Part shown: positions 45,496-64,000 of the stretch, piece by piece
Layout of the letters: each line of letters opens with the position of its first letter
How positions within the stretch are numbered: position 1 is the stretch's first letter
NCBI GenBank assembly: GCA_964516325.1
Contig: CAZFAP010000001.1
Location: forward strand, 2,221-66,220
Direction of reading: 5' to 3'
Length of the DNA stretch: 64,000 bases
From: an uncultured Verrucomicrobiota bacterium
GTDB taxonomy: Bacteria; Auribacterota; JABMQX01
Translations under genes and position numbers: made by a program
The notes under the pieces: generated by a model
Database searches by the model: none
What the model was told of the DNA's origin: nothing
The model's input: only the letters and a program-made list of their open reading frames with translations

Positions 45496-45546
45496 TGACG
45501 AGTTGGGAACTAAAGACAAGAGTCCGGTGCGGAAGGATGGTGCGCG

Positions 45547-50203: not shown

Positions 50204-52438
50204 ATGCTCAGAGCCACTCTTTTCGCCATATTTCTCTTCGCCCTTGTCTTCATTCCCCTGGGCTTGACTGGGGCAGATTGGTGCGTGGCGACTGCGCCGG
50301 CAGGGTCCGATTCAAATGCCGGGCGGGAGGATGGGCCTTGGGGGACGATTCTGAACGGCCTCCTCGGGGGTAATTCCGCTCGTGGGGACACGCCGCTTCC
50401 TTCCTCGAGCACGCCGACTTGCTCCTCCGTCGAGGACTGGATGGAAGGCGCCGCTGGCCCGGACAGTGCTGCCTCGAAACCGTGCGTTAGCGCATCCATG
50501 AGCATGGACGTGGGAGCGGACGAGACCCAGGACACGACCCCTCCGATGATCACTCTGTCGGGCGCGAATCCGATGACTCTTGAGGCGGGGACGGCTTACT
50601 ATGAGCCGGGGTACTATGCAGAGGACAATGTGGACGGCAACATCACCTATTGGGTAGTGGTCTCCGGTTGGGTGAACTACACCACGCCCGGCACCTACAC
50701 CTTGCGCTACAATGTCCGCGATTCCTCGGGCAATGCCGCCGAGGAGAAAACCCGGACAGTCAAAGTCGTGGATACCATCCCCCCGGTTATCACTTTGTAT
50801 GGCGATACTTCGATGGTGCTCCAGGCGGGAACTTCGTATTCCGAGCCCGGTTACACGGCGACGGACAACTGCGACGGAAACATTACGTGGTGGGTGACCG
50901 TCAGCGGCTATGTCTATTCCAGCGTGCTGGGGAGCTACACCCTCCGCTACAACGTCAAGGACTCGTCCGGGAATCCCGCTGAAGAGAAAATCCGCACGGT
51001 GAACGTGGTGGACACCACTGCTCCGGTGATTGCGCTCTCAGGGGATAATCCCATGACGCTGGAGGTAGGGAACTGGTACGTGGAGCCCGGCTACAGCGCC
51101 ACGGACAACTATGACGGCGACATCACCTCGAGGGTGTTTGTAACCGGCTCCGTGGACCACAGAACCGTCGGCAGCTATAAGATTCATTACAGCGTGACCG
51201 ACTCCTCTGGGAACCCCGCCCAAGAGAAGACGAGGACCGTCAATGTTGTGGACAGGACGCCGCCGGTGATCACCCTTTTGGGCGACAATACCATGAGATT
51301 GGAATGCGCGACTTCTTACTCGGAGCCGGGATACACCGCCACGGACAATTACGATGGGGATATGACGCTGGACGTTGTGGTCACGGGCACAGTAGATCAC
51401 ACGGCTCCGGGCAGTTACACCCTGAGATACAACGTGAAGGATTCTAACGGGAATGCGGCGGAAGAGAAGATCAGAGTTGTTACCGTCGTGGACATCACTC
51501 CTCCAGTGATTGTTCTGGCGGGCGATAACCAGATCACCCTGGAAGTCGGGACTCCCTATATTGAGCCGCGCTACACCGCGACCGACAACTGCGAGGGCGA
51601 CGTTACATCAGACGTGGTGGTCAGCGGCTCCGTGGATCCTACCGCCGTCGGAAGCTACACCTTGCGCTACAACGTAACCGACTGGAGCGGGAATTACGCC
51701 GAGCAGAAGACCCGGACAATCAACATTGTGGACACGACCCGGCCGGTAATCACGCTCTCAGGGGATAATCCCATGACGCTGGAGGTGGGGACCTGGTACA
51801 CGGAGCCAGGCTACGGCGCCATAGACAACGGCGACGGCGACATCACCTCGAAGGTGTTCGTGACCGGCTCGGTGGATCACAGAAGCCCGGGCAGGTACAC
51901 CCTTTACTACAACGTCACAGACTCTTCCGGCAACGTCGCCGAACAGAGAACCCGAACGGTGAACGTCGTGGACACGACCCCTCCCGTGATCACGTTGGAG
52001 GGAAAACGCTTCATGGTCCTCGACCTGGGGACACCCTATGTGGAACCGGGCTACGTCGCGACCGACAATTACGATTATGACCTGACGTGGGACGTCGTCG
52101 TTACTGGCTCGGTTGACCATACGGTCGCCGGAACCTATCTCCTCTACTACAACGTTGTGGATTCCTCCGCCAACCCCGCGAACCAGAAGACCCGCACCGT
52201 CAAGGTCGTCGAGGCGACCGTGTTCGACATCGTGGAGATCATTCAGGTGACGGAAGGAGGGGTGCAGGTGACCTGGGTCAGCCAGCCCGGCGCCAGCTAT
52301 TCCATCTGGTCGTGCAGCAGCCTCGCTCGTGAACTCTGGCACGAGGAAACGACCGTGGAATCCCAGGGCAGAATGACAATCTGGTCCGACCCCGACACAG
52401 CCTCCTCCAATAAGTTCTACAAGGTTCAGTTGAAGTGA
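50204..52438 (+). CDS. Secreted protein with 7 tandem DUF5011 (Ig-like) repeats and the conserved C-terminal domain
   Basis: AGGAGGGGG RBS and signal peptide MLRATLFAIFLFALVFIPLGLTGA. Seven 80-aa repeats of P.I.L.GDN.M.LE.G..Y.EPGY.A.DN.DG.IT..V.V.GSVD....G.Y.L.YNV.DSSGN.A.E.TRTV.VVD. The C-terminus reads VQVTWVSQPGASYSIWS...FYKVQLK. Confidence 0.8.
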   Translation: MLRATLFAIFLFALVFIPLGLTGADWCVATAPAGSDSNAGREDGPWGTILNGLLGGNSARGDTPLPSSSTPTCSSVEDWMEGAAGPDSAASKPCVSASMSMDVGADETQDTTPPMITLSGANPMTLEAGTAYYEPGYYAEDNVDGNITYWVVVSGWVNYTTPGTYTLRYNVRDSSGNAAEEKTRTVKVVDTIPPVITLYGDTSMVLQAGTSYSEPGYTATDNCDGNITWWVTVSGYVYSSVLGSYTLRYNVKDSSGNPAEEKIRTVNVVDTTAPVIALSGDNPMTLEVGNWYVEPGYSATDNYDGDITSRVFVTGSVDHRTVGSYKIHYSVTDSSGNPAQEKTRTVNVVDRTPPVITLLGDNTMRLECATSYSEPGYTATDNYDGDMTLDVVVTGTVDHTAPGSYTLRYNVKDSNGNAAEEKIRVVTVVDITPPVIVLAGDNQITLEVGTPYIEPRYTATDNCEGDVTSDVVVSGSVDPTAVGSYTLRYNVTDWSGNYAEQKTRTINIVDTTRPVITLSGDNPMTLEVGTWYTEPGYGAIDNGDGDITSKVFVTGSVDHRSPGRYTLYYNVTDSSGNVAEQRTRTVNVVDTTPPVITLEGKRFMVLDLGTPYVEPGYVATDNYDYDLTWDVVVTGSVDHTVAGTYLLYYNVVDSSANPANQKTRTVKVVEATVFDIVEIIQVTEGGVQVTWVSQPGASYSIWSCSSLARELWHEETTVESQGRMTIWSDPDTASSNKFYKVQLK
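50534..52213 (+). repeat. Intragenic tandem array of 7 DUF5011 repeats, 240 bp each. Repeats 3 (51014-51253) and 6 (51734-51973) are ~85% identical at the DNA level.
   Basis: Direct comparison of 51040-51250 with 51760-51970 shows long identical runs, for example CTCTCAGGGGATAATCCCATGACGCTGGAGGT and GACATCACCTCGA. Confidence 0.6.
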
Positions 52439-52693: not shown

Positions 52694-54961
52694 TTAGGGG
52701 CTTGACCGCGGTTCCACGCCGAGGAGGCGCCGGACAAAGAAATCCTGGCGGCGCCGGCTGGCATAGGGTGTCTCAGCGGCTCCGTGTCCCATCCCCGGCG
52801 CCACCAGCAGGTCAAAATCCTTATTTGCCTTTATCAGGGCGTTGACAACTTGCATGGTGGAAGCGGGGTCCACGTTCTTGTCCATCTCGCCGACGATGAG
52901 CAGCAATTTGCCTTCGAGCCTGTGCGCCTGGGTCACGTTCGACTGCTCCTCATAATGCGAGCCAACGGGCCAGCCCATCCAGAGTTCGTTCCACCAGATT
53001 TTGTCCATTCGGTTATCGTGGCAGCCGCAATCGCAAACGGCAACCTTGTAGAAGTCGCCGTGGGCGAGTAGCGCGCGCAGGGCGCTTTGCCCGCCTGCTG
53101 ACCCGCCATAGATGCCCACGCGCGTGACGTCCATATAATGGTATTTCGCCGCGGCGGCTTTGATCCAGAGGATGCGGTCGGGGAAGCCGGAGTCGGCCAG
53201 GTTCTTCCAGCAAACGTCCTGGAATTTCTTGGAACGGTCGGATGTCCCCATACCGTCAATTTGGACAGCGATGAAACCGAGTTCCGCCATCCCCTGCGGG
53301 CCATGGTAAGACCTGAAACGCTTGGGCACAAATGAGCCTTGCGGTCCCGCATATATTTCTTCTATGACCGGGTAGGTTCTGTTTGGATCAAAGGTCGTCG
53401 GCCGGTAAATGACGCCATAGATGTCGGTCTGACCGTCGCGTCCTTTGGCAACGAAGCGCTCTGGCGCCTGCCAGCCGGTCTTGAGAAGCTCTGACCAATC
53501 GGCTCTCTCAAGCTCGCAGACGGGCTTTCCATCTTCGGAGCGTCGCAGTTCAATCACTGGCGGCATGTCCACTCGCGACCACGTGTCGAGGAAGAAGAGC
53601 CGGTCGGGGGAGTATTCAATCGAGTGCGTGCCCTCGCCCTCCGTGAGAACAAGCAGCCCACTGCCATCGAAATTGACCCGGCAGTAATGGATATGGTAAG
53701 GCTCCTGACCGGGATGTATGCCGCCCGCGTGAAACCAGATCTGCCGCTTCTCTTCGTCCACGTGGTCCACGCCGCGGACGACCCAGTCCCCCTTTGTGAT
53801 CTGGTTTTTTACGCTGCTCGTCTCGGCGTCGTAGAGGTACAGGTGGTTCCAGCCGTCCCGCTCCGACATCCAGATGATCTCTCGCGTCTCGTCAATGCGG
53901 TGCATGAACTGTTTGTGAGCGTAGTCAATGAATGTATCGCTTTGCTCGTCAATGATAGCGCGGGCCGCCCCTGTCTCAACATCAACCGCGATGACTCGCA
54001 GCACTTGGTGCCCGCGCTGGTTATAAACGAACGTAAACCGCCGGGAGTCGCTGTCCCATCGGAAGTCGCTCACACTCCACGGATTCGGAAAGAGCTCATT
54101 GCTCATGGGAATGTGCTTCCTCGCAGAGACATCGAAGAGTTGGGGCATGGAAATCGGGATGCGGTCGCCAGGTTTGGGATAGGTGAATGAGTGCAACCTC
54201 GGCTGAAGTTGGTCTTTCGGAGACGACTCGACGAAATAGACCTTACGGTTGTCCCCTTTCTTCGTGCGGAGAGCCACGAGCTTTTTTGAATCCGGCGACC
54301 AGAAAACCCTCCCGGAGTATTCGTCTTCCGGATTGCCGTCCGTGCTGAGGGAAAATTCCTCCCCCTCGTCGAGGTCGCGGACGTAAAGGTTGTGATCCTT
54401 GAAGAACGCGAGCCACTTGCCGTCGGGTGATTCATTCCGACGAGGCGGCGGCGACTTCTTGCTCTCTCTTTTCGTCGGCGCTTCCGAGGACTCGACCTCT
54501 GTCAACGAGTAGTCATCCAACCCACATTTCCACGCTTTGCCTTCCGCCTTGAATCGGACCGCGTTTTCACATTCGAGGAATTCGATCTCGTCTATCGGCA
54601 GTTGAGTTGCGGTGTATTCCTTGCCGGTCGTGCGGGACAGGGATTCTGCCAATTTGGCATGGTCGAAAGCAGGCTGGCGAGTCCCGTTGGCGGCGTCCAC
54701 GACGATGAACTCCTTTGCCTCTTGGGGCAAGTCATTGCGATACCAGAAGCGACTGTTGTTGGCGAACCAGCGCGGTTTAACACTCGCCTTGAATACCTTG
54801 TTCTCCGTCAGTTTGCGGAGGTTGTTAGCGCGTTCGTAGTCCGAGCGCGTGCCTTGTGCTTGCAAGGAACTCGGGGCCCCCGACAGCACAATCGAAGAAA
54901 GACAGACCACTGTGAAATAGGGGACTCTCACCGTTTCTCTCCCTCTTGGTTGAACAACCAT
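52694..54961 (-). CDS. S9-family serine peptidase, dipeptidyl-peptidase IV-like (beta-propeller plus alpha/beta-hydrolase)
   Basis: DPP-IV N-terminal propeller; GGSAGG nucleophile elbow; catalytic D and H positions in the C-terminal hydrolase domain; signal peptide-like N-terminus. Confidence 0.85.
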   Translation of the reverse strand: MVVQPRGRETVRVPYFTVVCLSSIVLSGAPSSLQAQGTRSDYERANNLRKLTENKVFKASVKPRWFANNSRFWYRNDLPQEAKEFIVVDAANGTRQPAFDHAKLAESLSRTTGKEYTATQLPIDEIEFLECENAVRFKAEGKAWKCGLDDYSLTEVESSEAPTKRESKKSPPPRRNESPDGKWLAFFKDHNLYVRDLDEGEEFSLSTDGNPEDEYSGRVFWSPDSKKLVALRTKKGDNRKVYFVESSPKDQLQPRLHSFTYPKPGDRIPISMPQLFDVSARKHIPMSNELFPNPWSVSDFRWDSDSRRFTFVYNQRGHQVLRVIAVDVETGAARAIIDEQSDTFIDYAHKQFMHRIDETREIIWMSERDGWNHLYLYDAETSSVKNQITKGDWVVRGVDHVDEEKRQIWFHAGGIHPGQEPYHIHYCRVNFDGSGLLVLTEGEGTHSIEYSPDRLFFLDTWSRVDMPPVIELRRSEDGKPVCELERADWSELLKTGWQAPERFVAKGRDGQTDIYGVIYRPTTFDPNRTYPVIEEIYAGPQGSFVPKRFRSYHGPQGMAELGFIAVQIDGMGTSDRSKKFQDVCWKNLADSGFPDRILWIKAAAAKYHYMDVTRVGIYGGSAGGQSALRALLAHGDFYKVAVCDCGCHDNRMDKIWWNELWMGWPVGSHYEEQSNVTQAHRLEGKLLLIVGEMDKNVDPASTMQVVNALIKANKDFDLLVAPGMGHGAAETPYASRRRQDFFVRRLLGVEPRSSP

Positions 54962-55410
54962 ATCCTTTTTGCATCGCGGTTTGCGCCAGAAAGCTTCCCA
55001 TCCAGGTCCCGTTTCCCTCGACGCAGAGACCTCGCCCTCTTCTCATAGCGAGGATAACTCAACCCGCCCAATTCAGGCAATTGTCTCAATCTTCCGCACA
55101 AAGAACAATGGAGCCTCACAGGGAAGCCGATTTTCTGCAATCAAACTGGTTGACAGCCGTCAAGAAGGGGGTTAGCTATTAGCCTGGGCGCGGCACGACA
55201 GAAAGGCGACTGATTCAGGACTCGTCGGGCGACGCGAAATTTCCATGCCAAAGAGAGCGAAGGAGCCGCCGCCAAGGCTCTCACGCCAACAGGACGCGTC
55301 ATGCCGCCACCAGCGGCGCGATTGCGAGGCGTACAAAGCGGACACCCTCAAAGAGATAGACCGGAACGCCGATTGCGCCCTGAAGTGTAAGAACAAGGAG
55401 CATTAACCTG

Positions 55411-56736
55411 ATGCGGTTTCCAAACTTACTTGCCACGAAGCCCCGGCGATTCGCCGCCTTCTTCTGCTTATACCTCACCGAGGGACTTCCCCTTGGGTTC
55501 ACGGCGACCGCCATAGCGACGCAGATGCGCCGCCAGGGTGTCGGACCGGCTGCCATCGGGGTCTTTGTCGGAACCCTGTATCTGCCCTGGAGTTGGAAGT
55601 GGGTCATCGGGCCTTTCGTTGACGTTTTCTACTCCGACCGGCTTGGGCGGCGTCGGGCGTGGATCGTGGCGACGCAGCTCCTGATGGTCCTCATGTTGAT
55701 GGTCGCCATGCCAACCAACTACACGACGGAGATAAAACTCTTCACGTTGTTGATCATGGTCCTCAACGTTTTCAGCGCGACCCAGGATGTCGCCATTGAC
55801 GCATTGGCCTGCAGTGTTCTCAAGGAAGAGGAACGCGGGCTGGCAAACGGGTTGATGTTCGCCGGAGCCTATGTCGGACAGGCGATTGGTGGATCGGGCG
55901 TCCTGCTCCTGGCGAGATATGTCGGGTTCAATACCACGTTCTTCTTCGTCGCCGCATGCATCTTGGCTGTTACTTCTCTTGTGTCGCTGAACCTGCGAGA
56001 GCCGAAGACGGGCAAAGTGTCCGCGTCGCCCGGGTCCTGGTTTGCGGTCGCCGCTGCCGAGATCCGAAGTTACTCTGTGAAAGCGGTCAAGGCGTTCTTC
56101 GGAACGCGGGCAGCACGTGTCGGGCTTCTCTTCGCTCTCCTCCCCGCAGGGGCGTATTCTCTCTCCCTCGCGCTTCAGTCGAATTTAGCAGTGGAACTTG
56201 GCCTGAGCGATTCGGAAATCGCTGTTCTCGCCCTTGTGTCCACAATCATCTCGGCCGCTGGGTGCATCGTCGGCGGTTTTCTGTCTGACCGATTTGGGCG
56301 AAGGAAGATGCTCGCGCTGTACTTGGTGGGCACGGCCATTGCCACCGTTTACCTGGCGATAGTGATGTACGGCAAGAAATGGATCATGCCAATAGACCCC
56401 CGCATGCCGAGCCGGCCCCTCCCGCCACAAGCTCTTATCACTTCTTTTTGGGCGGCGAACATCGCCTATTCGGTCTTTCAAGGCTTGATGTACGGAACAC
56501 GCACGGCGCTGTTCATGGATATTTGTACGCCAGCAGTTGCGGCCACCCAATTCACCGCCTACATGGCGCTGCTCAACGTTGTCATCTGGTATTCCGCTAT
56601 ATGGCAAGGGAGGGCTATCGAGGCCTGGGGATACCCCGCCACCTTGATGCTCGACGCCGGCGCTGGACTTGTCTGCATCTGGCTTTTGCCCTTAATGACG
56701 AAGCCAACGCAGTCGGCTGCGTCCCCCGAAACCTGA
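55411..56736 (+). CDS. MFS transporter, AmpG-family (muropeptide / oligosaccharide permease-like)
   Basis: TEGLPLGF...LPWSWKWVIGPFVD...GRRRAW matches the AmpG family signature; 12 TM helices. Confidence 0.75.
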   Translation: MRFPNLLATKPRRFAAFFCLYLTEGLPLGFTATAIATQMRRQGVGPAAIGVFVGTLYLPWSWKWVIGPFVDVFYSDRLGRRRAWIVATQLLMVLMLMVAMPTNYTTEIKLFTLLIMVLNVFSATQDVAIDALACSVLKEEERGLANGLMFAGAYVGQAIGGSGVLLLARYVGFNTTFFFVAACILAVTSLVSLNLREPKTGKVSASPGSWFAVAAAEIRSYSVKAVKAFFGTRAARVGLLFALLPAGAYSLSLALQSNLAVELGLSDSEIAVLALVSTIISAAGCIVGGFLSDRFGRRKMLALYLVGTAIATVYLAIVMYGKKWIMPIDPRMPSRPLPPQALITSFWAANIAYSVFQGLMYGTRTALFMDICTPAVAATQFTAYMALLNVVIWYSAIWQGRAIEAWGYPATLMLDAGAGLVCIWLLPLMTKPTQSAASPET

Positions 56737-56898
56737 TTTCGTCTTCGCCTCGGGAAACCATCCCATGACCTCCGTGCGGAATCCAAACCCGCCACCGTGC
56801 CAAGCGAAGAGGTTATCGGACGCGCCATACACCAGAGCATTGGTCCCGTTCGCGGGGACATCGCTGTTTCATTGCGTTCCGACACCGCCGTCGCCTCG

Positions 56899-59262
56899 TC
56901 AAAACAATCGGTGCTCGGTTCTTTTTATAATCTCGTTCTGGAGGTCCGCGCCAAGCCCCACAAAATAGTCGCTGTAGCCGGCAACCCGTACAATCAGGTT
57001 TCGGTATTTCTCCGGATGCTTTTGCGCCTCACGCAGCGTTTCCGCCGTTACCACATTGAATTGGACGTGATGGCCGTCCATCCTGAAATACGTCCTGATA
57101 AGGTGGGCGAGCTTTGTGATCCCATCTTCGTCAGACAAAAGCTGAGGAGAGAACTTCTGGTTGAGGAGTGTCCCTCCCGTCTTGATGTGGTCCATTTTCG
57201 CCGCCGATTTGAGAACGGATGTCGGTCCATTGTGGTCCGCTCCCTGAACGGGTGAAATTCCTTCCGAGAGTGGCTCCATCGCATTCCTCCCGTCCGGAAG
57301 CGCCCCGACCGTCCGCCCAAAGTAAATATGAACGGTCGTTGGGAGGAGATTGATTCTGTGGCAGCCGCCTCGGGGGTTTGGCCGCCCATCAACGGCATCG
57401 TAGTACGCGTCGAATATTTGCTTCATTATCTCGTCGGCATAATCATCGTCGTTGCCGTATTTTGGCGTTTCGTATAAGAAGCGGTCTCTGAGGCTCTCGT
57501 CCTCGGCATAGTTGGTTTCCAGCGCCCGGAGCAGTTCTTTCATTGTGACATGTTTCTCGTCAAAGACATTATAGTTCACCGATGTCATCGCATCCGTCGC
57601 CGTCCCCAGCCCGACGCCTTGAATGTAGCTCGTGTTGTACCGCGCACCGCCGTCGTGGTAATCCTTCCCCTTCTCTATACAATCGTCAATGAGCAGCGAT
57701 AGGAAAGGTACGGGCACATACGTCGCGTACAGGCGCTCAATGATGTTGTTTCCCTTAATCTTGATGTCAATGAAGTGCCGCAACTGGATTCTGAACGCCG
57801 CAAACAGCTCATCAAATGTGCGAAATGAGGTGGGCTCCCCAGTCTCGACGCCGATTCTTTTGCCCGTTCCCGGATCCGCTCCGTTGTGCAGCGTGATCTC
57901 CAACACCTTAGGCAGATTGAAGTACCCGGTTAGAATGTAGGCTTCCTTTCCGAACGCGCCGCTTTCCACGCACCCGCTTGCCCCACCGCACCGCGCGTCT
58001 TCTATGGATTTTCGTTGCCGCATCAACTCCTGCACGATGGCATCCGTATTGAAAACCGAGGGCTGTCCAAAACCTGTCTTTACTATCTGAATAGCCCGCT
58101 TCAAGAAGCGATCGGGGTTCCTTTTGCTGAGTTGAATCATCGAACTGGGCTGGACGAGCCGCATCTCTTCGACGACGTCCAGAAGAACGTAAGAAAGCTC
58201 GTTCACGGCATCCGAGCCGTCCTGCTTTACCCCGCCCAGGTTGATCAGAGAGAAGTCCGTATAGGTGCTGCTTTCCTCCGCGGTAACGCCGACTTTCGGT
58301 GGCGCCGGGTGATTGTTGAACTTGATCCAGAAGGCCTGTAACAGTTCCCTTGCTTCCTCTTCGGTCAGAATCCCCGCTTCTATGTCTCGTTTGTAGAAGG
58401 GATATAGATGTTGGTCGAGTCTTCCCGGGTTGAACGAGTCCCAGGGATTTACTTCTGTGATCACGCCCACGTGCACGAACCAGTAATATTGAAGCGCCTC
58501 CCAAAACGTCTGCGGGGCATGGGCAGGGACTCTTCCGCAAATCTCCGCCATCTTCTCCAGCTCGTGTTTTCTTCTCGACTCCTTTTCTTTTTCCGCGAGT
58601 TCCTGAAGTCTCTCCGAATGGCGCCTGGCAAAAAGCATCAGCGCGTCGGCCGCGATGCTCATCGCCTTGAGTTCCTCGCTCTTATCATAAGCTTCTGGAT
58701 CAGTGTAATAATCCAATCGCTGCATGCTTCGACGGATGTCCTCCTTCAGGTCGAGAAAGCCCTTCCTGTAGATTTTGTCTCCCAGCGCGGTGTGTCCCGG
58801 CGCCCGCTGCTCCATGAACTCCGTGAAGACCCCGGCCTCATACGCCGCCTTCCAGTCCTCGGACATCTCCTGAAAGATGCGGTCTCTCATGGATTTCCCT
58901 GTCCAGTAGGGGATGATGCGGGTCTCATATATCCTTCTTGTCTCATCATCCACCGCGTATGGAATTCGCTCCCGAGAATGCAGAATTTCAAGGTCTTTCA
59001 GTGAGTGAATACATATTTCGGGATACGTGGGAGTCGCTTTAGGCTCCGGTCCTCTCTCCCCGACAATCAACTCGCCCTCGCCAATGTATAGCCTTTTGTT
59101 CTCGAGAATATGCTTGAATGCCAGCGCCCGCTTGACAGGGATGGACCCTTCTTCTGCTAAATCGCCTTGATAGAAATCTGTAATTAGGATTGCGCGTTCG
59201 AGGCAGATGCACGGCTTTCGACTGACACTTTGTTCTCGGAGCCTTTGTATCCTCTCGTTCAT
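56899..59262 (-). CDS. Glycyl radical enzyme of the eliminase/dehydratase class (Cys-x-Glu active site). Candidate trans-4-hydroxy-L-proline dehydratase (HypD-like); the substrate is not determinable from sequence alone.
   Basis: 787 aa; catalytic loop GASGCVESG (C-V-E, not the CC of PFL); C-terminal glycyl radical motif RVAGYSDYF. Confidence 0.85.
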   Translation of the reverse strand: MNERIQRLREQSVSRKPCICLERAILITDFYQGDLAEEGSIPVKRALAFKHILENKRLYIGEGELIVGERGPEPKATPTYPEICIHSLKDLEILHSRERIPYAVDDETRRIYETRIIPYWTGKSMRDRIFQEMSEDWKAAYEAGVFTEFMEQRAPGHTALGDKIYRKGFLDLKEDIRRSMQRLDYYTDPEAYDKSEELKAMSIAADALMLFARRHSERLQELAEKEKESRRKHELEKMAEICGRVPAHAPQTFWEALQYYWFVHVGVITEVNPWDSFNPGRLDQHLYPFYKRDIEAGILTEEEARELLQAFWIKFNNHPAPPKVGVTAEESSTYTDFSLINLGGVKQDGSDAVNELSYVLLDVVEEMRLVQPSSMIQLSKRNPDRFLKRAIQIVKTGFGQPSVFNTDAIVQELMRQRKSIEDARCGGASGCVESGAFGKEAYILTGYFNLPKVLEITLHNGADPGTGKRIGVETGEPTSFRTFDELFAAFRIQLRHFIDIKIKGNNIIERLYATYVPVPFLSLLIDDCIEKGKDYHDGGARYNTSYIQGVGLGTATDAMTSVNYNVFDEKHVTMKELLRALETNYAEDESLRDRFLYETPKYGNDDDYADEIMKQIFDAYYDAVDGRPNPRGGCHRINLLPTTVHIYFGRTVGALPDGRNAMEPLSEGISPVQGADHNGPTSVLKSAAKMDHIKTGGTLLNQKFSPQLLSDEDGITKLAHLIRTYFRMDGHHVQFNVVTAETLREAQKHPEKYRNLIVRVAGYSDYFVGLGADLQNEIIKRTEHRLF

Positions 59263-59264
59263 TC

Positions 59265-60065
59265 CTATCCTCCTACGGTGACCCGGATGCCGCAGCTTTC
59301 AAAACGTGTTCGGAGGTTTGTCATTGCATCGTCCGACGGCGGACGAACGCCCTCCATTGCATTTTTCCGGCGCAGCCCTCGATATTTCTCCGCCGCTATC
59401 GTGTGATAGGGAAGGAGCGAAACGTGCCTTATTGTTTTCGTCGAGACGATGAACTCGACAATCCCGAAGACGTTTTCTTCTGTGTCGGTTATCCCAGAGA
59501 TGACAGGAAAACGGACAACGACTGTTTTTGCCTGCTCATCAAGCGTTTTGAGGTTCTTGAGAATCATACGATTTGACACTCCCGTGTAGATTTGATGCTG
59601 GGCGTCGTCCATAAGCTTAACGTCATACAGGAAAAGGTCAACCTCCTCAACCACGGAGGCGAGCACGTCGGGGGCTGCGTAACCGGACGTGTCAAGACAT
59701 GTGTGAATACCCCTCTTCTTGCATGCATCGAGAAGTCCCCGGAGAAATTCCGGCTGCATCAGCGGCTCGCCCCCCGACAAGGTAACCCCGCCGCCCGATT
59801 CATCAAAAAACAGGATATCCCTTTCTACAATTTCCATAACCTCACGGACGTCAACCGCCCTGCCAACTACGTCGGTTCCGTCGGCGTGACCGGGCCCTTT
59901 GCGGCGGATTACCGAGATCATAGTCTCCCGATTCGGGTTTTGACCTTCCGGATTGTGGCACCACGGACATCTCAGAGGGCATCCTTTCAGAAAAACAGTT
60001 GTCCGGATGCCGGGTCCATCATGGATTGCATAACGTTTGATGTCAAACACCGTTCCCGTGGTCAT
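59265..60065 (-). CDS. Glycyl-radical enzyme activating protein (radical SAM)
   Basis: The N-terminus DGPGIRTTVFLKGCPLRCPWCHNPE has CxxxCxxC together with the GRE-AE-specific motif. Confidence 0.9.
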   Translation of the reverse strand: MTTGTVFDIKRYAIHDGPGIRTTVFLKGCPLRCPWCHNPEGQNPNRETMISVIRRKGPGHADGTDVVGRAVDVREVMEIVERDILFFDESGGGVTLSGGEPLMQPEFLRGLLDACKKRGIHTCLDTSGYAAPDVLASVVEEVDLFLYDVKLMDDAQHQIYTGVSNRMILKNLKTLDEQAKTVVVRFPVISGITDTEENVFGIVEFIVSTKTIRHVSLLPYHTIAAEKYRGLRRKNAMEGVRPPSDDAMTNLRTRFESCGIRVTVGG

Positions 60066-60169
60066 GCATTCCTTCTCGCGTTACTTCAGGCAAGCCTCGA
60101 GCGCCCGGTGTCCCGGCCAACTTGCAGATTATGGGGTGAAAGGAACACTGGGGTCCCGGAGGGTTCCTC

Positions 60170-61558
60170 TCAGCAGGCTGACATGTCCTCAACTTCCTCA
60201 ATCGTCTTTGGGATTCTCTTGCCGAGCACTCTGTGCCCATCTTCCAATACCAAAACGTCATCTTCTATTCTTACGCCGCCGAAATCCCTATAGTTAAGAA
60301 CCAAATCGTAGTTGATGAATTGCAACCATTTTCGTTCCGCTTTCCATCGGTCTATTAGCTCAGGGATGAAATAGACACCTGGCTCCACCGTTACTACAAA
60401 CCCCGGCTTGAGCGCCTTAGCCAGCCTCAGCGACCGCCAGCCAAACTCGGGACGCCTCCGAATGGAATCGGTATAACCGACGTAGTCCTCGCCGATGCCC
60501 TCCATATCATGGACATCGAGGCCCATCATGTGCCCCAAGCCGCAAGGGAAAAATAGGGTGTGCGCGCCCGCTTGCACAGCCTCTTCGGGGTTCCCTTTCA
60601 TCAAGCCAAGGTCTATCAGGTCGCAGGCCAGAATCACGCAAGCAGTGCGATGGACATCTCTGAACTCAATGCCCGGTCTGATTGCGTCAATGGCTTGCTC
60701 CTGCGCCCGCAGGACAATCTGATAGAGTTCCCTCTGTCTCTCGGTAAACCTCCCGCCAATGGCAATGGTTCTCGTAATGTCGCTCGCATAATGCAGGGGA
60801 GACTCTGCCCCGGAATCGTGAACAACAAGGTCGCCCTCTTTCAGAACATTTCCATGAAGGTGATTATGGAGTATTTGTCCCTGTCTTGAGAAGATGGTAG
60901 GGAAGGCAAGTCGCGCTTCCCTCGAGAGGGCAAGACCCTCGATGGCGCCCGCAATTTCCCTTTCATACATCTCGGGCCTCGAGGTTTTCATTGCGAGAGT
61001 ATGCATCTCATAAGTAATATCGAGCGCCATCTCAATTTGCCGAATTTCCTCCACTGATTTTACTGACCTCTGCGCCACGACAGCCTTGATTAAGGGCTCG
61101 GAGACGCAAGGGGGAATTGCCGCAGCGTCTATCCCCAGAAGCTGCTTGAGTCTCAGCACATTGTCCGGCCGGTACTGGGGAAGAAAATGAATCCTTCTCG
61201 CCTGATCAAGGGCTTTCTTCAGTCTTTCCTCGAGTTGACCACGCGGCGCGCTTTCATGGATTCCGACTTGCTCGCATCTTTCCTTCAAGCTCGCCTGCGG
61301 TCCCTTCCAGATAAGGTCGTCAATCGTCGGCTCGTCGCCAAATAGGGTCTCCGTCCCCTCCTGGACATCAAGGACGGCAGCAAGCCCCGGCGAGTCGAGT
61401 CCACAATAGTAGAGAAACGAGCTGTCCTGTCGAAAAGGGTATGGGTTGTCTCCGTAGTTCATGGGACTGTCGTCATGACCGAGTAGAAGGATCAGTCCTG
61501 CTTGTACAGCTCGCCTCAATCGCTCACGTCTTTCCATGTAAACGTTCGCAGGAAGCAC
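60170..61558 (-). CDS. pepP: Xaa-Pro aminopeptidase (M24B metallopeptidase, PepP-like)
   Basis: PepP N-terminal domain (YPFRQDSSFLYYCG); pita-bread fold metal ligands (HDSG...D, H, E...E). Confidence 0.85.
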   Translation of the reverse strand: MLPANVYMERRERLRRAVQAGLILLLGHDDSPMNYGDNPYPFRQDSSFLYYCGLDSPGLAAVLDVQEGTETLFGDEPTIDDLIWKGPQASLKERCEQVGIHESAPRGQLEERLKKALDQARRIHFLPQYRPDNVLRLKQLLGIDAAAIPPCVSEPLIKAVVAQRSVKSVEEIRQIEMALDITYEMHTLAMKTSRPEMYEREIAGAIEGLALSREARLAFPTIFSRQGQILHNHLHGNVLKEGDLVVHDSGAESPLHYASDITRTIAIGGRFTERQRELYQIVLRAQEQAIDAIRPGIEFRDVHRTACVILACDLIDLGLMKGNPEEAVQAGAHTLFFPCGLGHMMGLDVHDMEGIGEDYVGYTDSIRRRPEFGWRSLRLAKALKPGFVVTVEPGVYFIPELIDRWKAERKWLQFINYDLVLNYRDFGGVRIEDDVLVLEDGHRVLGKRIPKTIEEVEDMSAC

Positions 61559-61561
61559 TTC

Positions 61562-63358
61562 CTATTCCTCTTTCACGGTTTGTCGGCGCCGGCTGACCAG
61601 GCTGACGACGATCAGAGCTGCCACGGACAAGGCAATTGCGGGCAATACAGCGTCCAATTCCATAATCGAAGCTGGAAGCCAACGCCTCAGGAATCGCATT
61701 TCCTTCCAAGCTAATGTGACCACCGTTCCGGAGGCGATGGAAGCTATGGCGCCTTGTTTTGTGGCGCCTTTCCAGAACATTGCAGCGACGAGACATGGCG
61801 TGATTCCAGAGCCATAAACTGTATAGGCATAGAGCGCTTTCTGAAATACCGTTGTAGATTCTGCAAATGCAAGCGAAACCCAATAGCCTATCAAGCCGAG
61901 CATGAGCACGAGCATCCTGCTCAGAAAAACGATTCTCTTTTCCGCAGCCTTCGGATTCACGTGAGTCAGGTAAACATCTTTGATAAAGGTTGTCGCCGGG
62001 ACCAGGAGAAATGCATCCGCCGTCGAAATGATGATTCCAACGACCGTTACCAGGAAAAGTGCCCCCAAGATTAATGGCATGAAATGCTTCGCCGCGTAAA
62101 TAAGCACGTACTTCCCATTCTCCGGGTCCGGTATCATGCTCGCCGCAACCCAAGCAGCCGCGATAATCAAAAGTTCAATCGCCATCGCCGCAAAAATCAT
62201 TACAGTGACAGCCGTTTTCGCTCCTCTTGCGTCTTTGCTGGCGAAAATCCGCTGGTATAGGTTGGCGTCGCCCAACACGAGAAGGAAGACGGGAAGACAA
62301 TAGTTGATGAGTTTCGTTCCGGAATATACACCCCAGAACTCCATGTGATGCGGTCTGTCGCCCATGGCAGCGAATGCCGCCTGCATCCCGCTGAATCCTC
62401 CGGCTTTGTGCAACAGCACAGGAAAAGCGACAATCATTGAGATAGTTATGATGGTCCCTGTTACGATGTCCGTGAAAGCGAGGCTGAGCAATCCTGCCGA
62501 CATCGTATAGATGATGATAAAAATGGCGGCGATGACGGTGGCTTTTCCGGCTGTCAGCCTCGGTTCCGATAGGACAAGCTTGCCGTGCTCGGGTAGCGAG
62601 CCAATTCGATACAATTTTGTTCTGTTGCCCACGTGCTCGCCGTAGCCACAGAACACCACTTTTGCCATGCTGCCTTCCTTGATGGCGACACGATTCTTGA
62701 CCTTTTTAGACTCGATTTTCATCGAGGTAGCGGCAATCTCTTTCGGAGCCACGACAGCGATTTCAAAAGTTCGGACGCGATTTGACCAACTGTCGCCTTC
62801 CCGAACATGGAAGGTGATGGCTGTTGATCCCCTCCAGCCTCTATCGGGTTGAAATTGCAGGTACCCCTTTTCGACTTGGGATTTCGTGAGTTCGTCGTGG
62901 ACTTTTACTGCAATAGGCTCCTTTTTGCCTGCGATTACTTCCAGAACCATGCCCCCGGCATTAAATTGATAGCTCACGATCACCATATAGGCAATGATGA
63001 GCGCAACTACAGACAACAACCTCGCCGCGGGACCATACCGTTTTCCAACGATCTCAGGAACGCTAACAGCCTCCGATCTCCGAGCCTTGCCGGCTACGAG
63101 TGACAGGAGTATCATTCCGATGAAGGTGCCCACAGGGAGGATGAACGCGGCCAGTCCATCTCGATAAGCCTGCCCCGCATTCCCGACAATTGACCCTGTG
63201 CCAATCCAGGCAGCGAGCATCGTGCAAACAACAATCCAGGGCGACAGGGACCTTCCTGCTACCGAGAAATCGGCGCCGGTTCTAATCTGCCGCGATTTGT
63301 ATATCGCAATCCCGGTGAGAACCAATAAATATGCGAATATGGCAATGAGGTAGGTCAT
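61562..63358 (-). CDS. Sodium:solute symporter (SSS) family transporter with a ~145-aa hydrophilic insertion
   Basis: SSS N-terminal helices (GADFSVAGRSLSPW...AAWIGTGSIVG). The insertion between TM helices, KKEPIAVKVH...LSEPRLTAGK, carries no TM segment. Confidence 0.8.
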   Translation of the reverse strand: MTYLIAIFAYLLVLTGIAIYKSRQIRTGADFSVAGRSLSPWIVVCTMLAAWIGTGSIVGNAGQAYRDGLAAFILPVGTFIGMILLSLVAGKARRSEAVSVPEIVGKRYGPAARLLSVVALIIAYMVIVSYQFNAGGMVLEVIAGKKEPIAVKVHDELTKSQVEKGYLQFQPDRGWRGSTAITFHVREGDSWSNRVRTFEIAVVAPKEIAATSMKIESKKVKNRVAIKEGSMAKVVFCGYGEHVGNRTKLYRIGSLPEHGKLVLSEPRLTAGKATVIAAIFIIIYTMSAGLLSLAFTDIVTGTIITISMIVAFPVLLHKAGGFSGMQAAFAAMGDRPHHMEFWGVYSGTKLINYCLPVFLLVLGDANLYQRIFASKDARGAKTAVTVMIFAAMAIELLIIAAAWVAASMIPDPENGKYVLIYAAKHFMPLILGALFLVTVVGIIISTADAFLLVPATTFIKDVYLTHVNPKAAEKRIVFLSRMLVLMLGLIGYWVSLAFAESTTVFQKALYAYTVYGSGITPCLVAAMFWKGATKQGAIASIASGTVVTLAWKEMRFLRRWLPASIMELDAVLPAIALSVAALIVVSLVSRRRQTVKEE

Positions 63359-63434
63359 TTTGATGTCCCTGCCCGTGGAGAGTTCAATCTCCGGATGGGA
63401 CGCCCCAAGACCATGAACATTGGAACCGATGCTG

Positions 63435-64000
63435 TCATTTCACAAATTGCTCGGCAAAGTACCTCGGGGTTAATCCTTCGCCCGTCGCGCGCTGAATCAT
63501 GTGATTCCAATGGTAAATGGCTCCCGGCCCGAATACGTTCTCTCGGAGAAATTCGCCAGCCTTCTTTTGCCCCACATAACTAACCCCTCGATCCGACGTA
63601 AGCGCCAGAACCTTGTGAACAATGTAGTGATGGAGTTGAGATGCGAACAGTTCACCCAACATATAGTTATGATAATAACAAGGCGCCGTCGTGAAATGGA
63701 GCTTGGAAGCCCAGCCACAATCCGCATAGTCGGGCGGCGTGCTCAAGAACTGATATTTCCCTATGGTTTTCCACCAGAGAGAATCCAGGTCCTGGTCAGG
63801 GTTCGCGTAAAGCTGCTTTTCAAACTCGTACATCACCCCGGCCCAACGTGCGAACACGAGCTGTTGAAGTTGCATGTATTTGCGGCTCACCTTTTCGATC
63901 TGTTCCGTTTGGTCGTCTGGCAATTGCAGCACCTCCCGCATCCAAGCCGCATTCCGGCTCAAGCGGCCGAAGAACATGGCCATTCCTTCCGTGCTGAACG
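63435..64000 (-). CDS. C-terminal part of an M3-family oligoendopeptidase (PepF-like); the N-terminus lies beyond the window end
   Basis: The C-terminal helical domain pattern (HYIVH...AIYHWNHMIQRATGE) resembles M3B peptidases. The track shows only the last 182 aa. Confidence 0.45.
   Translation of the reverse strand, partial: FSTEGMAMFFGRLSRNAAWMREVLQLPDDQTEQIEKVSRKYMQLQQLVFARWAGVMYEFEKQLYANPDQDLDSLWWKTIGKYQFLSTPPDYADCGWASKLHFTTAPCYYHNYMLGELFASQLHHYIVHKVLALTSDRGVSYVGQKKAGEFLRENVFGPGAIYHWNHMIQRATGEGLTPRYFAEQFVK

What the first reader, a model, noticed from the sequence alone, without database searches (positions are those of the whole stretch)
56899..64000. Peptidase-transporter-glycyl-radical-enzyme operon: candidate anaerobic hydroxyproline / collagen-peptide catabolism
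One minus-strand operon encodes a PepF-like oligopeptidase, an SSS transporter (the family of the proline permease PutP), a Xaa-Pro aminopeptidase PepP, a GRE activase and an eliminase-class GRE (C-x-E active site). A DPP-IV-like prolyl dipeptidyl peptidase is adjacent. All three peptidases are proline-specific. The best-known GRE working on a proline derivative is trans-4-hydroxy-L-proline dehydratase (HypD). This locus would link extracellular Pro/Hyp-rich peptide breakdown to HypD-type chemistry. The GRE could alternatively be a glycerol/propanediol dehydratase or a choline/isethionate lyase.
Basis: inference. Interest (0 to 1): 0.65.

Follow-up and report, generated by a model that had tools for sequence, protein, structure and literature searches.

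The report
Hydroxyproline-peptide uptake and HypD operon
This is a real five-gene operon in which a known oxygen-sensitive enzyme that breaks down hydroxyproline (HypD) is coupled to a conserved peptidase-transporter-dipeptidase set that probably supplies it with hydroxyproline from protein fragments, a supply route that had not been identified.

Summary
Five co-oriented, tightly spaced minus-strand genes fill 56899-64000. The glycyl radical enzyme is trans-4-hydroxy-L-proline dehydratase (HypD). It scores 1305.9 bits on the NCBIfam equivalog (cut-off 1100), is 58% identical to C. difficile HypD, and keeps all 15 active-site residues. CutC, glycerol dehydratase and isethionate lyase are excluded. 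Two labels need correcting. The cut 5' gene is an ACE-like (M2) gluzincin lipoprotein, not PepF. The M24 enzyme is closest to human prolidase, not PepP.

The new result is comparative. The unit M2-like peptidase, SSS transporter and prolidase-like M24 keeps one order in about 80 metagenome loci, mostly Phycisphaerae. HypD plus activase adjoins it in 29 of 44 informative loci, in two arrangements that use two different HypD/activase lineages. Several cassettes without HypD sit beside the non-radical hydroxyproline pathway. The cassette is therefore most likely a hydroxyproline-peptide acquisition module.

Not settled:
- what the transporter carries (dipeptide or free imino acid);
- the hydroxyproline source (collagen or plant/algal glycoproteins; GH127 genes in relatives hint at the latter);
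- the fate of P5C (no proC nearby).

The enzyme is known; the context is new.

The parts
63435..64000 (-). C-terminal 187 codons of an ACE-like (M2-type) gluzincin peptidase. The gene continues beyond the window end. It is probably a periplasmic lipoprotein that acts as a peptidyl-dipeptidase.
   Evidence: The fragment passes only the Pfam M32 threshold (29.7 bits). Its homologues are named peptidyl-dipeptidase A or M2 family metallopeptidase. The full-length homologue L156:8171-9922 scores 72.8 bits on Pfam M2 over positions 3-550 of 581 (M3 44.7, M32 45.2). A profile of 24 homologues has ACE2 orthologues as its best PDB match. Most full-length homologues have a lipobox. The zinc-ligand Glu (TEGMAM) and K-L-H...Y...Y are present in the window fragment. 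HEXXH lies outside the window and is seen in the homologues.
61562..63358 (-). Sodium:solute symporter family transporter of 598 aa. It is the proposed importer of Xaa-Hyp/Xaa-Pro dipeptides or of free Hyp/Pro.
   Evidence: Pfam SSF scores 131 bits. The PutP equivalog scores 137.8 bits, below its 515.5 cut-off. The AF2 model has pLDDT 82.6 and pTM 0.82. It has the SLC5 fold, with CHT1 and SiaT at TM about 0.77. The gene always sits between the M2-like and M24 genes in the 80 fetched loci plus L082.
62552..62929 (-). Insert of about 125 aa (residues 144-269) within the SSS transporter, between two transmembrane helices. It is predicted to be a folded periplasmic beta-rich domain.
60170..61558 (-). 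Cytoplasmic M24B Xaa-Pro peptidase of the eukaryotic prolidase (PEPD) type. It is proposed to release free Hyp or Pro from imported dipeptides.
   Evidence: AMP_N and Peptidase_M24 domains are present. The PepP and PepQ equivalogs are both below their cut-offs. The best PDB match is human prolidase at 196.8 bits, against 162 bits for E. coli PepP. Equivalents of the PEPD metal ligands D276, D287, H370, E412 and E452, and of the substrate residues H255, H377, R398 and W107, are all present. There is no signal peptide; the AMP_N match starts at residue 7.
59265..60065 (-). Radical SAM activase for HypD, in a short form without the ferredoxin-like auxiliary-cluster domain.
   Evidence: The GRE-activase subfamily model TIGR02494 scores 291.6 bits (cut-off 174). 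The HypD-activase equivalog scores 306.7 bits, below its 425 cut-off, in two stretches that skip model positions of about 41-95. CPLRCPWC is present, and there is no Cys in the 54-residue spacer. Its stop codon lies 2 nt from the HypD start.
56899..59262 (-). trans-4-hydroxy-L-proline dehydratase (HypD), a glycyl radical enzyme of 787 aa.
   Evidence: NF043068 scores 1305.9 bits (cut-off 1100). The next specific family scores 579.7 bits. The match to 6VXC is 1087 bits, against 549 for GDH, 473 for CutC, 486 for HpyG and 416 for HplG. All 15 functional residues are conserved.
52694..54961 (-). Secreted DPP-IV-like S9B dipeptidyl peptidase. It is probably an accessory supplier of Xaa-Pro/Hyp dipeptides and is a separate transcription unit.
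   Evidence: DPPIV_N scores 173.6 bits and Peptidase_S9 147.6 bits. It has a signal peptide and GGSAGG, GEMD and GMGHG motifs. Homologues sit right after M24 in L141 (67% identity), after HypD in L058 (40%), and near the cassette in L095 and L133.
55411..56736 (+). MFS transporter distantly related to AmpG, convergent with HypD. It is probably not part of the system.
   Evidence: MFS_1 domain. The AmpG subfamily model scores 157 bits, below its 350 cut-off. No homologue was found near HypD or the cassette in any of the 162 loci.

Best explanation
The operon is a hydroxyproline-peptide acquisition and catabolism unit of an anaerobic bacterium of the PVC group (Planctomycetota/Verrucomicrobiota), probably related to Phycisphaerae.

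Shown by sequence: the last two genes encode HypD and its radical SAM activase. HypD dehydrates free trans-4-hydroxy-L-proline to delta-1-pyrroline-5-carboxylate (P5C) in the cytoplasm.

Inferred from conserved gene order and family chemistry:
1. A membrane-anchored periplasmic ACE-like (M2) peptidase trims short Pro/Hyp-rich oligopeptides from the C-terminus, most likely releasing dipeptides. The secreted DPP-IV-like enzyme nearby does the same from the N-terminus.
2. The SSS transporter, which carries a periplasmic beta-rich insert, imports the product.
3. The cytoplasmic prolidase-type M24 enzyme splits Xaa-Hyp/Xaa-Pro into free amino acids.
4. HypD then removes the hydroxyl group.

Not settled here: the fate of P5C (reduction to proline or oxidation to glutamate) and the Hyp source (collagen or plant/algal Hyp-rich glycoproteins).
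For: HypD identity:
- The equivalog score is above its cut-off.
- It is 58% identical to the crystallised enzyme, and F152, R156, H160, W277, D278, K326, S334, D339, F340, C434, V435, E436, Y450, T645 and G765 are all conserved.

Functional unit:
- The five genes are tightly spaced.
- Similarity to L156 ends at the HypD stop codon.

Cassette conservation:
- The M2-like, SSS and M24 genes keep one order in essentially every fetched SSS locus where the contig allows. Counts over 81 loci: SSS 81, M24 73, M2 65.

Linkage to Hyp catabolism:
- Activase plus HypD adjoins the cassette in 29 loci. Another 15 loci with readable sequence upstream of M2 lack it.
- The junction has two forms. In 28 loci the order is AE-HypD-M2-SSS-M24 with a long ferredoxin-type activase. 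In the window and L156 it is M2-SSS-M24-AE-HypD with a short activase.
- The two forms use HypDs that are only 59-68% identical and fall in different parts of an NJ tree.
- Cassettes without HypD sit beside other hydroxyproline genes. L133 has Pro_racemase, DAO and Pyr_redox_2/BFD right after M24, plus AcnX and a DHDPS-family gene. L095 has Aldedh, AcnX and DHDPS. L113 has AcnX. L132 has DHDPS. L099 has Pro_racemase. These match the Lhp cluster families (PMC5144071).
- Independently, a 47-59% identical M24 gene lies next to HypD in 14 of 80 genomes from other phyla, and within 250 bp downstream in 9 of them.

Dipeptide logic:
- The M24 enzyme is closest to human prolidase and keeps the equivalent of its carboxylate-binding Arg398.
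- In the profile alignment to ACE2, the M2-like family has an invariant Lys where ACE2 has Leu503 and an invariant Tyr where ACE2 has Phe512. From memory of the ACE/ACE2 literature, these are ACE Lys511 and Tyr520, which bind the C-terminal carboxylate of the dipeptide leaving group.
- Lipoboxes place the M2-like enzyme outside the cytoplasm. The M24 enzyme has no signal peptide.
Against: - There are no experimental data for any of these proteins.
- No SSS-family member known to me transports peptides, and the nearest named family is the proline symporter PutP. The transporter may carry free Hyp or Pro.
- About a third of informative cassettes have no Hyp gene in view.
- None of the 80 genomes with the most similar HypDs carries the M2-SSS part of the cassette.
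- The specificity of the M2-like enzyme is inferred from a weak alignment (about 50 bits) plus residue roles recalled from the literature.
- No P5C reductase or P5C dehydrogenase is nearby, so the pathway end is missing.
- The activase scores below the HypD-activase equivalog cut-off.
Confidence: 0.7

Rival explanations
1. The cassette is a general proline-peptide scavenging set. The SSS protein is a PutP-like importer of free proline or hydroxyproline. The M24 enzyme works on peptides brought in by other transporters. The M2-like enzyme is an unspecific oligopeptidase or carboxypeptidase. HypD is then only one of several downstream users.
For: PutP is the best named family for the transporter (137.8 bits). 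Fifteen informative cassettes lack an adjacent HypD. The M2-like proteins also pass the Pfam M3 and M32 thresholds. Prolidase-type enzymes cleave Xaa-Pro as well as Xaa-Hyp (PMC8438212).
Against: When the neighbours of the cassette are informative, they are hydroxyproline-specific: HypD, Pro_racemase/DAO/DHDPS/Aldedh of the Lhp type, and AcnX. They are not proline dehydrogenase or reductase genes. The strict three-gene order, with a cytoplasmic dipeptidase-type enzyme next to the only transporter, suits a dipeptide route. The PutP equivalog score is far below its 515.5 cut-off, and the transporter carries an extra periplasmic domain.
Confidence: 0.22
2. The GRE acts on a different substrate. 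Candidates are another eliminase substrate (choline, glycerol/propanediol, isethionate, sulfopropanediol) or a hydroxyproline derivative handled by HplG, HpyG or HpzG.
For: All of these enzymes share the fold, and the eliminases and HpyG/HpzG also share the C-x-E loop. Activity was not measured.
Against: The equivalog scores are 1305.9 bits for HypD against 519.7 for CutC and 579.7 for HpsG, both far below their cut-offs. The PDB scores are 1087 bits for HypD against 549 for GDH, 493 for PD, 486 for HpyG/HpzG, 416 for HplG and 399-447 for IslA. The residues that are strictly conserved only in HypD are present: Asp278, Asp339 and Ser334 in place of the Phe of other eliminases.
Confidence: 0.03
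3. The gene neighbourhood is a product of genome rearrangement with no shared function or transcript.
For: The promoter and terminator scans were uninformative (7 promoter-like sites against 5.0 expected). The 104-nt gap before the activase could hold an internal promoter. Gene content beyond the five genes is not conserved.
Against: The same five genes occur together in 29 loci. They do so in two different arrangements built from two HypD lineages, which is what selection for linkage would produce.
Confidence: 0.05

Closest known systems
HypD/HypD-AE of Clostridioides difficile (trans-4-hydroxy-L-proline dehydratase; PDB 6VXC/6VXE; PMC7077986, PMC6219649)
   Same: Same enzyme family and predicted chemistry. 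It is 58% identical, with every catalytic and substrate-binding residue kept and an activase gene directly upstream.
   Different: In Clostridia hypD is paired with proC for Stickland-type reduction to proline. Here there is no proC. The partners are a peptidase-transporter-dipeptidase cassette. The activase lacks the ferredoxin-like domain.
Human prolidase PEPD (Xaa-Pro/Xaa-Hyp dipeptidase, last step of collagen breakdown; PDB 5M4G, 2IW2; PMC8438212)
   Same: It is the best solved relative of the M24 gene product (196.8 bits). The two-domain architecture is the same, as are the five metal ligands, His255, His377, Arg398 and Trp107, and the long loops around Arg398.
   Different: This one is bacterial and encoded in an operon with a transporter and HypD. 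Dipeptide-only specificity was not tested. NCBIfam places it nearest to PepP, but far below the cut-off.
Angiotensin-converting enzyme family (MEROPS M2, peptidyl-dipeptidase A)
   Same: Full-length homologues give a full-length Pfam M2 match. They have HEXXH plus a Glu zinc site. In the alignment, Lys, His, Tyr and Tyr sit at the ACE carboxylate and transition-state positions.
   Different: The similarity is very distant (about 50-70 bits). The protein is about 560 aa and a lipoprotein. It also matches the M3 and M32 models. Only the last 187 residues lie in the window.
Aerobic L-hydroxyproline (Lhp) gene clusters of Pseudomonas and Sinorhizobium (PMC5144071)
   Same: Catabolic genes are clustered with a dedicated uptake system for hydroxyproline. 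Relatives of the cassette sit next to LhpA-, LhpB/E-, LhpC-, LhpG- and AcnX-type genes.
   Different: Those clusters use ABC transporters for free Hyp and have no peptidases. The window uses the radical enzyme route instead.
PutP Na+/proline symporter (SSS family)
   Same: Same superfamily and fold. An S-T pair sits on the helix where PutP has its Na+ site; this placement is my inference from memory of PutP.
   Different: It scores 137.8 bits against a 515.5 cut-off. It has a periplasmic insert of about 125 aa with no close structural relative. It always lies between two peptidase genes.

Membership tests
HypD (trans-4-hydroxy-L-proline dehydratase, NF043068) | Whole-protein score at or above the curated equivalog cut-off | tested here: met
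   1305.9 bits against a cut-off of 1100, covering residues 2-785 of 787.
HypD (trans-4-hydroxy-L-proline dehydratase, NF043068) | Glycyl radical site and the Cys-x-Glu loop | tested here: met
   Gly762 in RVAGYSD; Cys431-Val432-Glu433.
HypD (trans-4-hydroxy-L-proline dehydratase, NF043068) | HypD-specific residues: His160, Asp278, Ser334, Asp339, Phe340, Tyr450, Thr645 (PMC7077986) | tested here: met
   All are identical at query positions 157, 275, 331, 336, 337, 447 and 642.
HypD (trans-4-hydroxy-L-proline dehydratase, NF043068) | Dehydration of trans-4-Hyp to P5C | not testable with these tools
   Needs an anaerobic enzyme assay.
HypD activase (NF043069) / GRE activases with a ferredoxin-like domain | CX3CX2C radical SAM cluster motif and a GRE-activase subfamily score | tested here: met
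   CPLRCPWC at residues 29-36. TIGR02494 scores 291.6 bits against a cut-off of 174.35.
HypD activase (NF043069) / GRE activases with a ferredoxin-like domain | Equivalog cut-off, and an auxiliary domain of about 8 Cys after the SAM motif | tested here: not met
   306.7 bits against a cut-off of 425. The spacer is 54 residues with 0 Cys, against 89-101 residues with 7-9 Cys in the long forms. It works like a HypD activase but belongs to a short subgroup.
Prolidase (PEPD-type M24B Xaa-Pro dipeptidase) | AMP_N and pita-bread domains with five metal ligands | tested here: met
   Pfam gives 97.2 and 159 bits. The ligands are D in HDSG247, D in SDIT259, H in GLGH340, E in TVEPG390 and E in RIEDD430.
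Prolidase (PEPD-type M24B Xaa-Pro dipeptidase) | Substrate residues His255, His377, Arg398 and Trp107 of human PEPD | tested here: met
   ILH, DVH, WRSLR and LIW align with the human residues.
Prolidase (PEPD-type M24B Xaa-Pro dipeptidase) | Activity restricted to dipeptides with C-terminal Pro or Hyp | not testable with these tools
   Needs assays with Gly-Hyp, Pro-Hyp, Hyp-Hyp and tripeptides.
   188.8 bits against a cut-off of 465. E. coli PepP scores below human prolidase in the PDB search (162 against 196.8 bits).
Peptidase M2 (ACE-like peptidyl-dipeptidase A) | Pfam M2 domain above threshold over the full length, with a HEXXH...E zinc site | tested here: met
   Tested on the full-length homologues L156 and L120: 72.8 and 79.5 bits against a threshold of 23. 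HELGH and TEAIAM are present in the homologues. The window holds only TEGMAM and the C-terminal part, and that fragment alone passes only the M32 threshold.
Peptidase M2 (ACE-like peptidyl-dipeptidase A) | ACE-type S2' carboxylate binders (Lys511, Tyr520) rather than the ACE2-type residues (Leu503, Phe512) | tested here: inconclusive
   An invariant K and Y align with ACE2 L503 and F512 in the profile alignment. The alignment is weak, and the ACE-to-ACE2 residue correspondence is from memory.
   22.3 bits against a cut-off of 561.7 for the fragment. In the full-length homologues Pfam M3 is above threshold but below M2.
PutP Na+/proline symporter | Equivalog cut-off | tested here: not met
   TIGR02121 scores 137.8 bits against 515.5, and the sss superfamily model 150 against 184. 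The Pfam SSF threshold and the SLC5 fold are met.
DPP-IV (S9B) | DPPIV_N propeller, S9 catalytic domain and Ser/Asp/His motifs | tested here: met
   173.6 and 147.6 bits. GGSAGG at 619, with GEMD and GMGHG downstream. Specificity was not tested.
BMC-associated or sulfite-producing GRE loci (CutC, PD, IslA type) | BMC shell or sulfite reductase genes nearby | tested here: not met
No such Pfam family appears among the larger window ORFs scanned; ORFs under 100 aa, the size of many shell proteins, were not scanned.

The most novel reading that the evidence does not exclude
The conserved trio forms a dedicated 'dipeptide shuttle' for hydroxyproline. An ACE-like lipoprotein clips Xaa-Hyp dipeptides off collagen- or extensin-derived oligopeptides in the periplasm. 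An SSS-family transporter with a periplasmic beta-rich insert imports them; the insert may dock the peptidase or capture the dipeptide. A bacterial PEPD-type prolidase then frees the Hyp. This would be the first peptide-transporting member of the sodium:solute symporter family known to me. It would also be the first defined route by which anaerobes obtain the free Hyp that HypD needs.
Probability: 0.35. Interest if true: 0.75.

Novelty: new variant of a known kind. Interest (0 to 1): 0.55.

Why it matters
HypD is one of the most abundant glycyl radical enzymes in anaerobic communities, but it acts only on free hydroxyproline. In nature hydroxyproline is locked in collagen and in plant or algal glycoproteins. 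[quoted passage not shown]

This locus and its roughly 80 relatives supply concrete, testable candidates: an ACE-like lipoprotein, an unusual SSS transporter and a human-type prolidase. The same trio is plugged into either the radical (HypD) route or the epimerase/dehydrogenase route.

The locus also shows that HypD activases without the ferredoxin-like domain are common (62 of 72 classifiable in the genomes sampled). A 2026 review names only PFL-AE and class III RNR-AE as activases that consist of the radical SAM domain alone (PMC13450708).

I found no paper in the searchable library that links HypD with prolidase, GH127 or Phycisphaerae. That library is incomplete.

Tried and rejected
- Extending the window past 64000 failed. 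The SSS protein is not on record for the contig look-up. The activase look-up returned only a 3.9-kb Logan contig. The parent NCBI contig of 112 kb could not be fetched. The 5' end of the M2-like gene and its upstream region therefore had to be read from relatives (L082, L156).
- The sigma-70 promoter and terminator scans were no better than shuffles.
- Rfam found nothing in 54000-64000.
It gave no hit in the window or in any of the 162 loci fetched by then.
- tblastn with PduA gave no BMC shell hit (query from memory, no positive control).
- Relatives of proline racemase, OCD, C69 and GntR that recur near other HypDs are absent from the window.
- The MFS gene next to HypD was rejected as part of the system because it is not conserved anywhere.
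- The fold of the SSS insert gave no convincing PDB relative. The AFDB library was unavailable.
- Substrate assignment of the SSS protein by homology failed. The best solved relative is a choline transporter at 63 bits.
- The organism could not be named. The best HypD relative is labelled Verrucomicrobiota (83%), while the cassette relatives are labelled Phycisphaerae, Sedimentisphaerales or Planctomycetota.

Full report
**Observation**

The minus strand of 56899-64000 carries five co-oriented ORFs:
- 63435->64000, which runs off the window;
- 61562-63358 (598 aa);
- 60170-61558 (462 aa);
- 59265-60065 (266 aa);
- 56899-59262 (787 aa).

The gaps between them are 76, 3, 104 and 2 nt. Pfam and NCBIfam assign them to a gluzincin peptidase C-terminus, SSF, AMP_N+Peptidase_M24, Radical_SAM and PFL-like+Gly_radical.

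A DPPIV_N+S9 protein lies at 52694-54961 on the same strand. A convergent MFS gene (55411-56736, plus strand) lies between it and HypD, so it is not in the same transcript. The description is therefore correct at the level of gene presence, order and superfamily.

**The glycyl radical enzyme is HypD**

- It scores 1305.9 bits on the NCBIfam equivalog for trans-4-hydroxy-L-proline dehydratase (cut-off 1100). The next specific models reach only 579.7 bits (sulfopropanediol dehydratase) and 519.7 bits (CutC), about half their cut-offs.
- Against solved structures it gives 1087 bits with C. difficile HypD. The others are lower: glycerol dehydratase 549, propanediol dehydratase 493, HpyG/HpzG 486, CutC up to 473, IslA 399-447 and HplG 416.
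- I took the functional residues from the structure paper (PMC7077986) and mapped them by global alignment. All 15 are identical: F152, R156, H160, W277, D278, K326, S334, D339, F340, C434, V435, E436, Y450, T645 and G765. This includes Asp278 and Asp339, which the paper describes as strictly conserved in HypD and not in other eliminases, and Ser334, where other eliminases have Phe.

**The activase**

- The upstream gene has the CX3CX2C motif and passes the GRE-activase subfamily model.
- It falls below the HypD-activase equivalog (306.7 against 425 bits). The match skips the roughly 55 model positions of the ferredoxin-like insert.
- The spacer between the SAM-cluster motif and the GGE motif is 54 residues with no cysteine. 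Long forms have 89-101 residues with 7-9 Cys.
- This short form is not an accident of this genome. Of the classifiable activases next to HypD in the genomes sampled, 62 of 72 are short.
- A 2026 review states that the vast majority of GRE activases carry the ferredoxin-like domain, and names only PFL-AE and RNR-AE as exceptions (PMC13450708).

**Re-annotation of the three upstream genes**

(a) The truncated 5' gene.
- The fragment itself passes only the Pfam M32 threshold.
- Its homologues are named peptidyl-dipeptidase A or M2 family metallopeptidase.
- Full-length relatives are about 560-580 aa. They match Pfam M2 across the whole model (72.8-79.5 bits), and M3 and M32 more weakly.
- A profile of 24 relatives finds ACE2 orthologues first in the PDB.
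- The relatives have HELGH and the downstream Glu ligand. Most start with a lipobox such as LFGC or LAGC, so the enzyme is extracytoplasmic and membrane-anchored.
- In the profile alignment, an invariant Lys and an invariant Tyr fall where ACE2 has Leu503 and Phe512. From my memory of the ACE/ACE2 literature, these are ACE Lys511 and Tyr520, which hold the C-terminal carboxylate of the dipeptide being released. This favours a peptidyl-dipeptidase, but the alignment is weak.

(b) The M24 protein.
- It is below the PepP and PepQ equivalog cut-offs.
- Its best solved relative is human prolidase (196.8 bits, against 162 for E. coli PepP).
- The five PEPD metal ligands and His255, His377, Arg398 and Trp107 (roles from PMC8438212) are all matched.
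- It has no signal peptide.

(c) The transporter.
- It is an SSS protein far below the PutP cut-off, with an SLC5 fold.
- It carries an insert of about 125 residues between two helices. The insert folds with high confidence into a beta-rich domain (pLDDT 89.7) and has no close PDB relative.
- Sequence relatives of the insert are tandem repeats in giant proteins annotated with cadherin-like/Big_9 domains.
- The positive-inside rule puts the insert in the periplasm (inference).

**Comparative genomics**

A metagenome scan with the transporter returned 80 loci at 57-81% identity over the full length.
- In these loci and in L082, the order M2-like, SSS, M24 is kept wherever the contig allows.
- Activase plus HypD lies directly upstream of the M2-like gene in 28 loci. 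The gap is 22-290 bp in 24 of them.
- HypD lies downstream of M24 only in L156, the closest relative of the window.
- L156 matches the window at 80.5% nucleotide identity from 64000 down to 56898, and no further.

The two arrangements use different partners.
- The 28-locus form has long, ferredoxin-type activases: 15 of the 17 classifiable cassette-linked activases are long, and the two short ones are the window's and L156's. Its HypDs are 59-68% identical to the window's.
- These HypDs group together beside other long-activase HypDs in an NJ tree. The window, L156, L001 and L002 sit among the short-activase HypDs.
- Two independent joinings of HypD to the same cassette argue for selection on the linkage. 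The tree is NJ without support values, so this is provisional.

**Cassettes without HypD are also informative**

Fifteen loci with readable sequence upstream of M2 lack HypD. Several of them, and some shorter contigs, carry the other hydroxyproline route.
- L133 has Pro_racemase (314 bits), DAO and Pyr_redox_2 with a BFD-type 2Fe-2S domain immediately after M24. It also has a DPP-IV-like gene, the AcnX large and swivel subunits, and a DHDPS-family gene.
- L095 has an aldehyde dehydrogenase after M24, then DPP-IV-like, AcnX and DHDPS genes.
- L113 has AcnX after M24. L132 has DHDPS before the transporter. L099 has Pro_racemase next to M2. L131 and L162 have enolase-superfamily genes.
- These are the families of the Lhp hydroxyproline cluster: epimerase, D-Hyp dehydrogenase, Pyr4H2C deaminase, KGSA dehydrogenase, and AcnX or enolase-type 3-Hyp dehydratases (PMC5144071).
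- One caution: the AcnX here is the two-polypeptide type. Only the single-chain type I has been shown to be a cis-3-Hyp dehydratase.

In the reverse direction, the 80 genomes with the most similar HypDs come from many phyla and archaea.
- None has the M2-SSS pair.
- Fourteen have a 47-59% identical M24 gene near HypD, and nine of those have it within 250 bp downstream.
- DPP-IV-like genes also recur: L058, L031 and L079, and L141 at 67% identity right after M24.

**Mechanism**

Shown: HypD and an activase are encoded and intact, and both are cytoplasmic enzymes that need free Hyp.

Inferred:
1. Oligopeptides rich in Pro/Hyp are trimmed outside the cytoplasm. The ACE-like lipoprotein works from the C-terminus, and in this genome the secreted DPP-IV-like enzyme works from the N-terminus. 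ACE releases Ser-Pro from bradykinin and DPP-IV releases Xaa-Pro (textbook knowledge), so both can yield Xaa-Pro/Hyp dipeptides.
2. The SSS transporter imports the product.
3. The prolidase-type enzyme frees Hyp.
4. HypD makes P5C.

The weakest step is the transporter's substrate. I put about 0.35-0.45 on dipeptides and most of the rest on free Hyp or Pro.

**Open ends**

- No proC, proline racemase, OCD or P5C-dehydrogenase-like gene is in the window. [quoted passage not shown]
- OCD/mu-crystallin genes recur near HypD elsewhere, in 10 of 80 genome loci and in L165. They may take that role.
- The Hyp source is not fixed. L156 has two GH127 beta-L-arabinofuranosidases right after HypD, L083 has one after M24, and L065 (Bacteroidales) has GH127 genes on both sides of HypD. 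GH127 is the HypBA1 family, which acts on Hyp-linked beta-arabinosides of extensins (PMC10850190 and PMC7263609, abstracts). The window has no GH127.
- The rest of the window fits an anaerobe: pyruvate:ferredoxin oxidoreductase, a flavodiiron-type protein, rubrerythrin and a multihaem cytochrome.

**Comparison and novelty**

The enzyme is a new member of a well-characterised family. What I did not find described is:
- the conserved M2-SSS-prolidase cassette and its alternating coupling to the two hydroxyproline pathways;
- the insert-bearing SSS transporter;
- the prevalence of short HypD activases.

Searches of the held library for HypD with prolidase, GH127 or Phycisphaerae found nothing relevant. 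The library misses most subscription-journal papers, so prior description cannot be excluded. I rate the finding a new variant of a known kind, of moderate interest.

Noticed in passing
window 59265-60065 (-); activases next to HypD in L001-L080: The HypD activase lacks the 8-Cys ferredoxin-like domain. The same short form accompanies HypD in 62 of 72 classifiable genome loci. A 2026 review names only PFL-AE and class III RNR-AE as activases made of the radical SAM domain alone.
   Followed up: partly
window 62552-62929 (-), inside the SSS gene: An insert of about 125 aa sits in the SSS transporter. It is predicted with high confidence to be a beta-rich domain and is probably periplasmic. It has no close PDB fold. 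Its sequence relatives are tandem repeats in giant proteins annotated as cadherin-like.
   Followed up: yes
L156 16388-21603; L083 13197-14414; L065 3022-5376 and 12381-14300: GH127 beta-L-arabinofuranosidase genes (the HypBA1 family, which acts on Hyp-linked arabinosides) lie directly beside HypD or the cassette in three unrelated loci. This suggests plant or algal Hyp-rich glycoproteins as a Hyp source. None is present in the window.
   Followed up: partly
L133 13464-21377; L095 7519-15977; L113 3454-4740; L132 93-1007; L099 3670-4593: Cassettes without HypD are flanked by genes of the non-radical hydroxyproline pathway families: Pro_racemase, DAO, Pyr_redox_2/BFD, DHDPS, Aldedh and two-subunit AcnX.
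   Followed up: partly
L001-L080 (clusters 4 and 6); L165 15040-16005: Genes like proline racemase (12 loci) and OCD/mu-crystallin (10 loci, plus L165) recur within a few kb of HypD in diverse phyla, while proC was never found. They may handle Hyp isomers or P5C in place of ProC.
   Followed up: no
L085 7169-9943; L162 7172-9934: An extra S9 peptidase of about 920 aa (Peptidase_S9 with PD40 repeats) is inserted between the M2-like gene and the SSS gene in two cassette loci.
   Followed up: no
L052 894-4255 (-): A Desulfobacteraceae contig carries a second GRE (41% identical to the window's HypD) with its own long activase, about 6 kb from its HypD. It may be a paralogue acting on another hydroxyproline derivative.
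   Followed up: no
L095 9316-10842; L163 13266-14747: A protein of about 500 aa with a faint Peptidase_M90 match follows the M24 gene, directly in L163 and after an aldehyde dehydrogenase gene in L095, in cassettes that lack HypD.
   Followed up: no
window 9833-15433 (-), 46709-47905 (-), 50009-52438 (+): Large surface-type proteins are present: an 1866-aa protein with four BACON_2 domains and a beta-helix region, and two proteins with bacterial Ig-like surface domains (seven repeats in the 809-aa one) just beyond the DPP-IV-like gene.
   Followed up: no
window 28003-39438: A run of oxidative-stress and redox genes occurs in an apparent anaerobe: a redoxin/AhpC-type protein, a multihaem cytochrome, rubrerythrin, Fe/Mn superoxide dismutase, pyruvate:ferredoxin oxidoreductase subunits, a flavodoxin-like protein and a flavodiiron-type protein.
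   Followed up: no
window 1-2316 (-), 44197-46032 (-), 48371-49729 (-), 18163-19422 (+), 25937-27043 (-): Long ORFs (368-771 aa) have no Pfam family at E<=1e-5. I did not check whether they are real genes.
   Followed up: no
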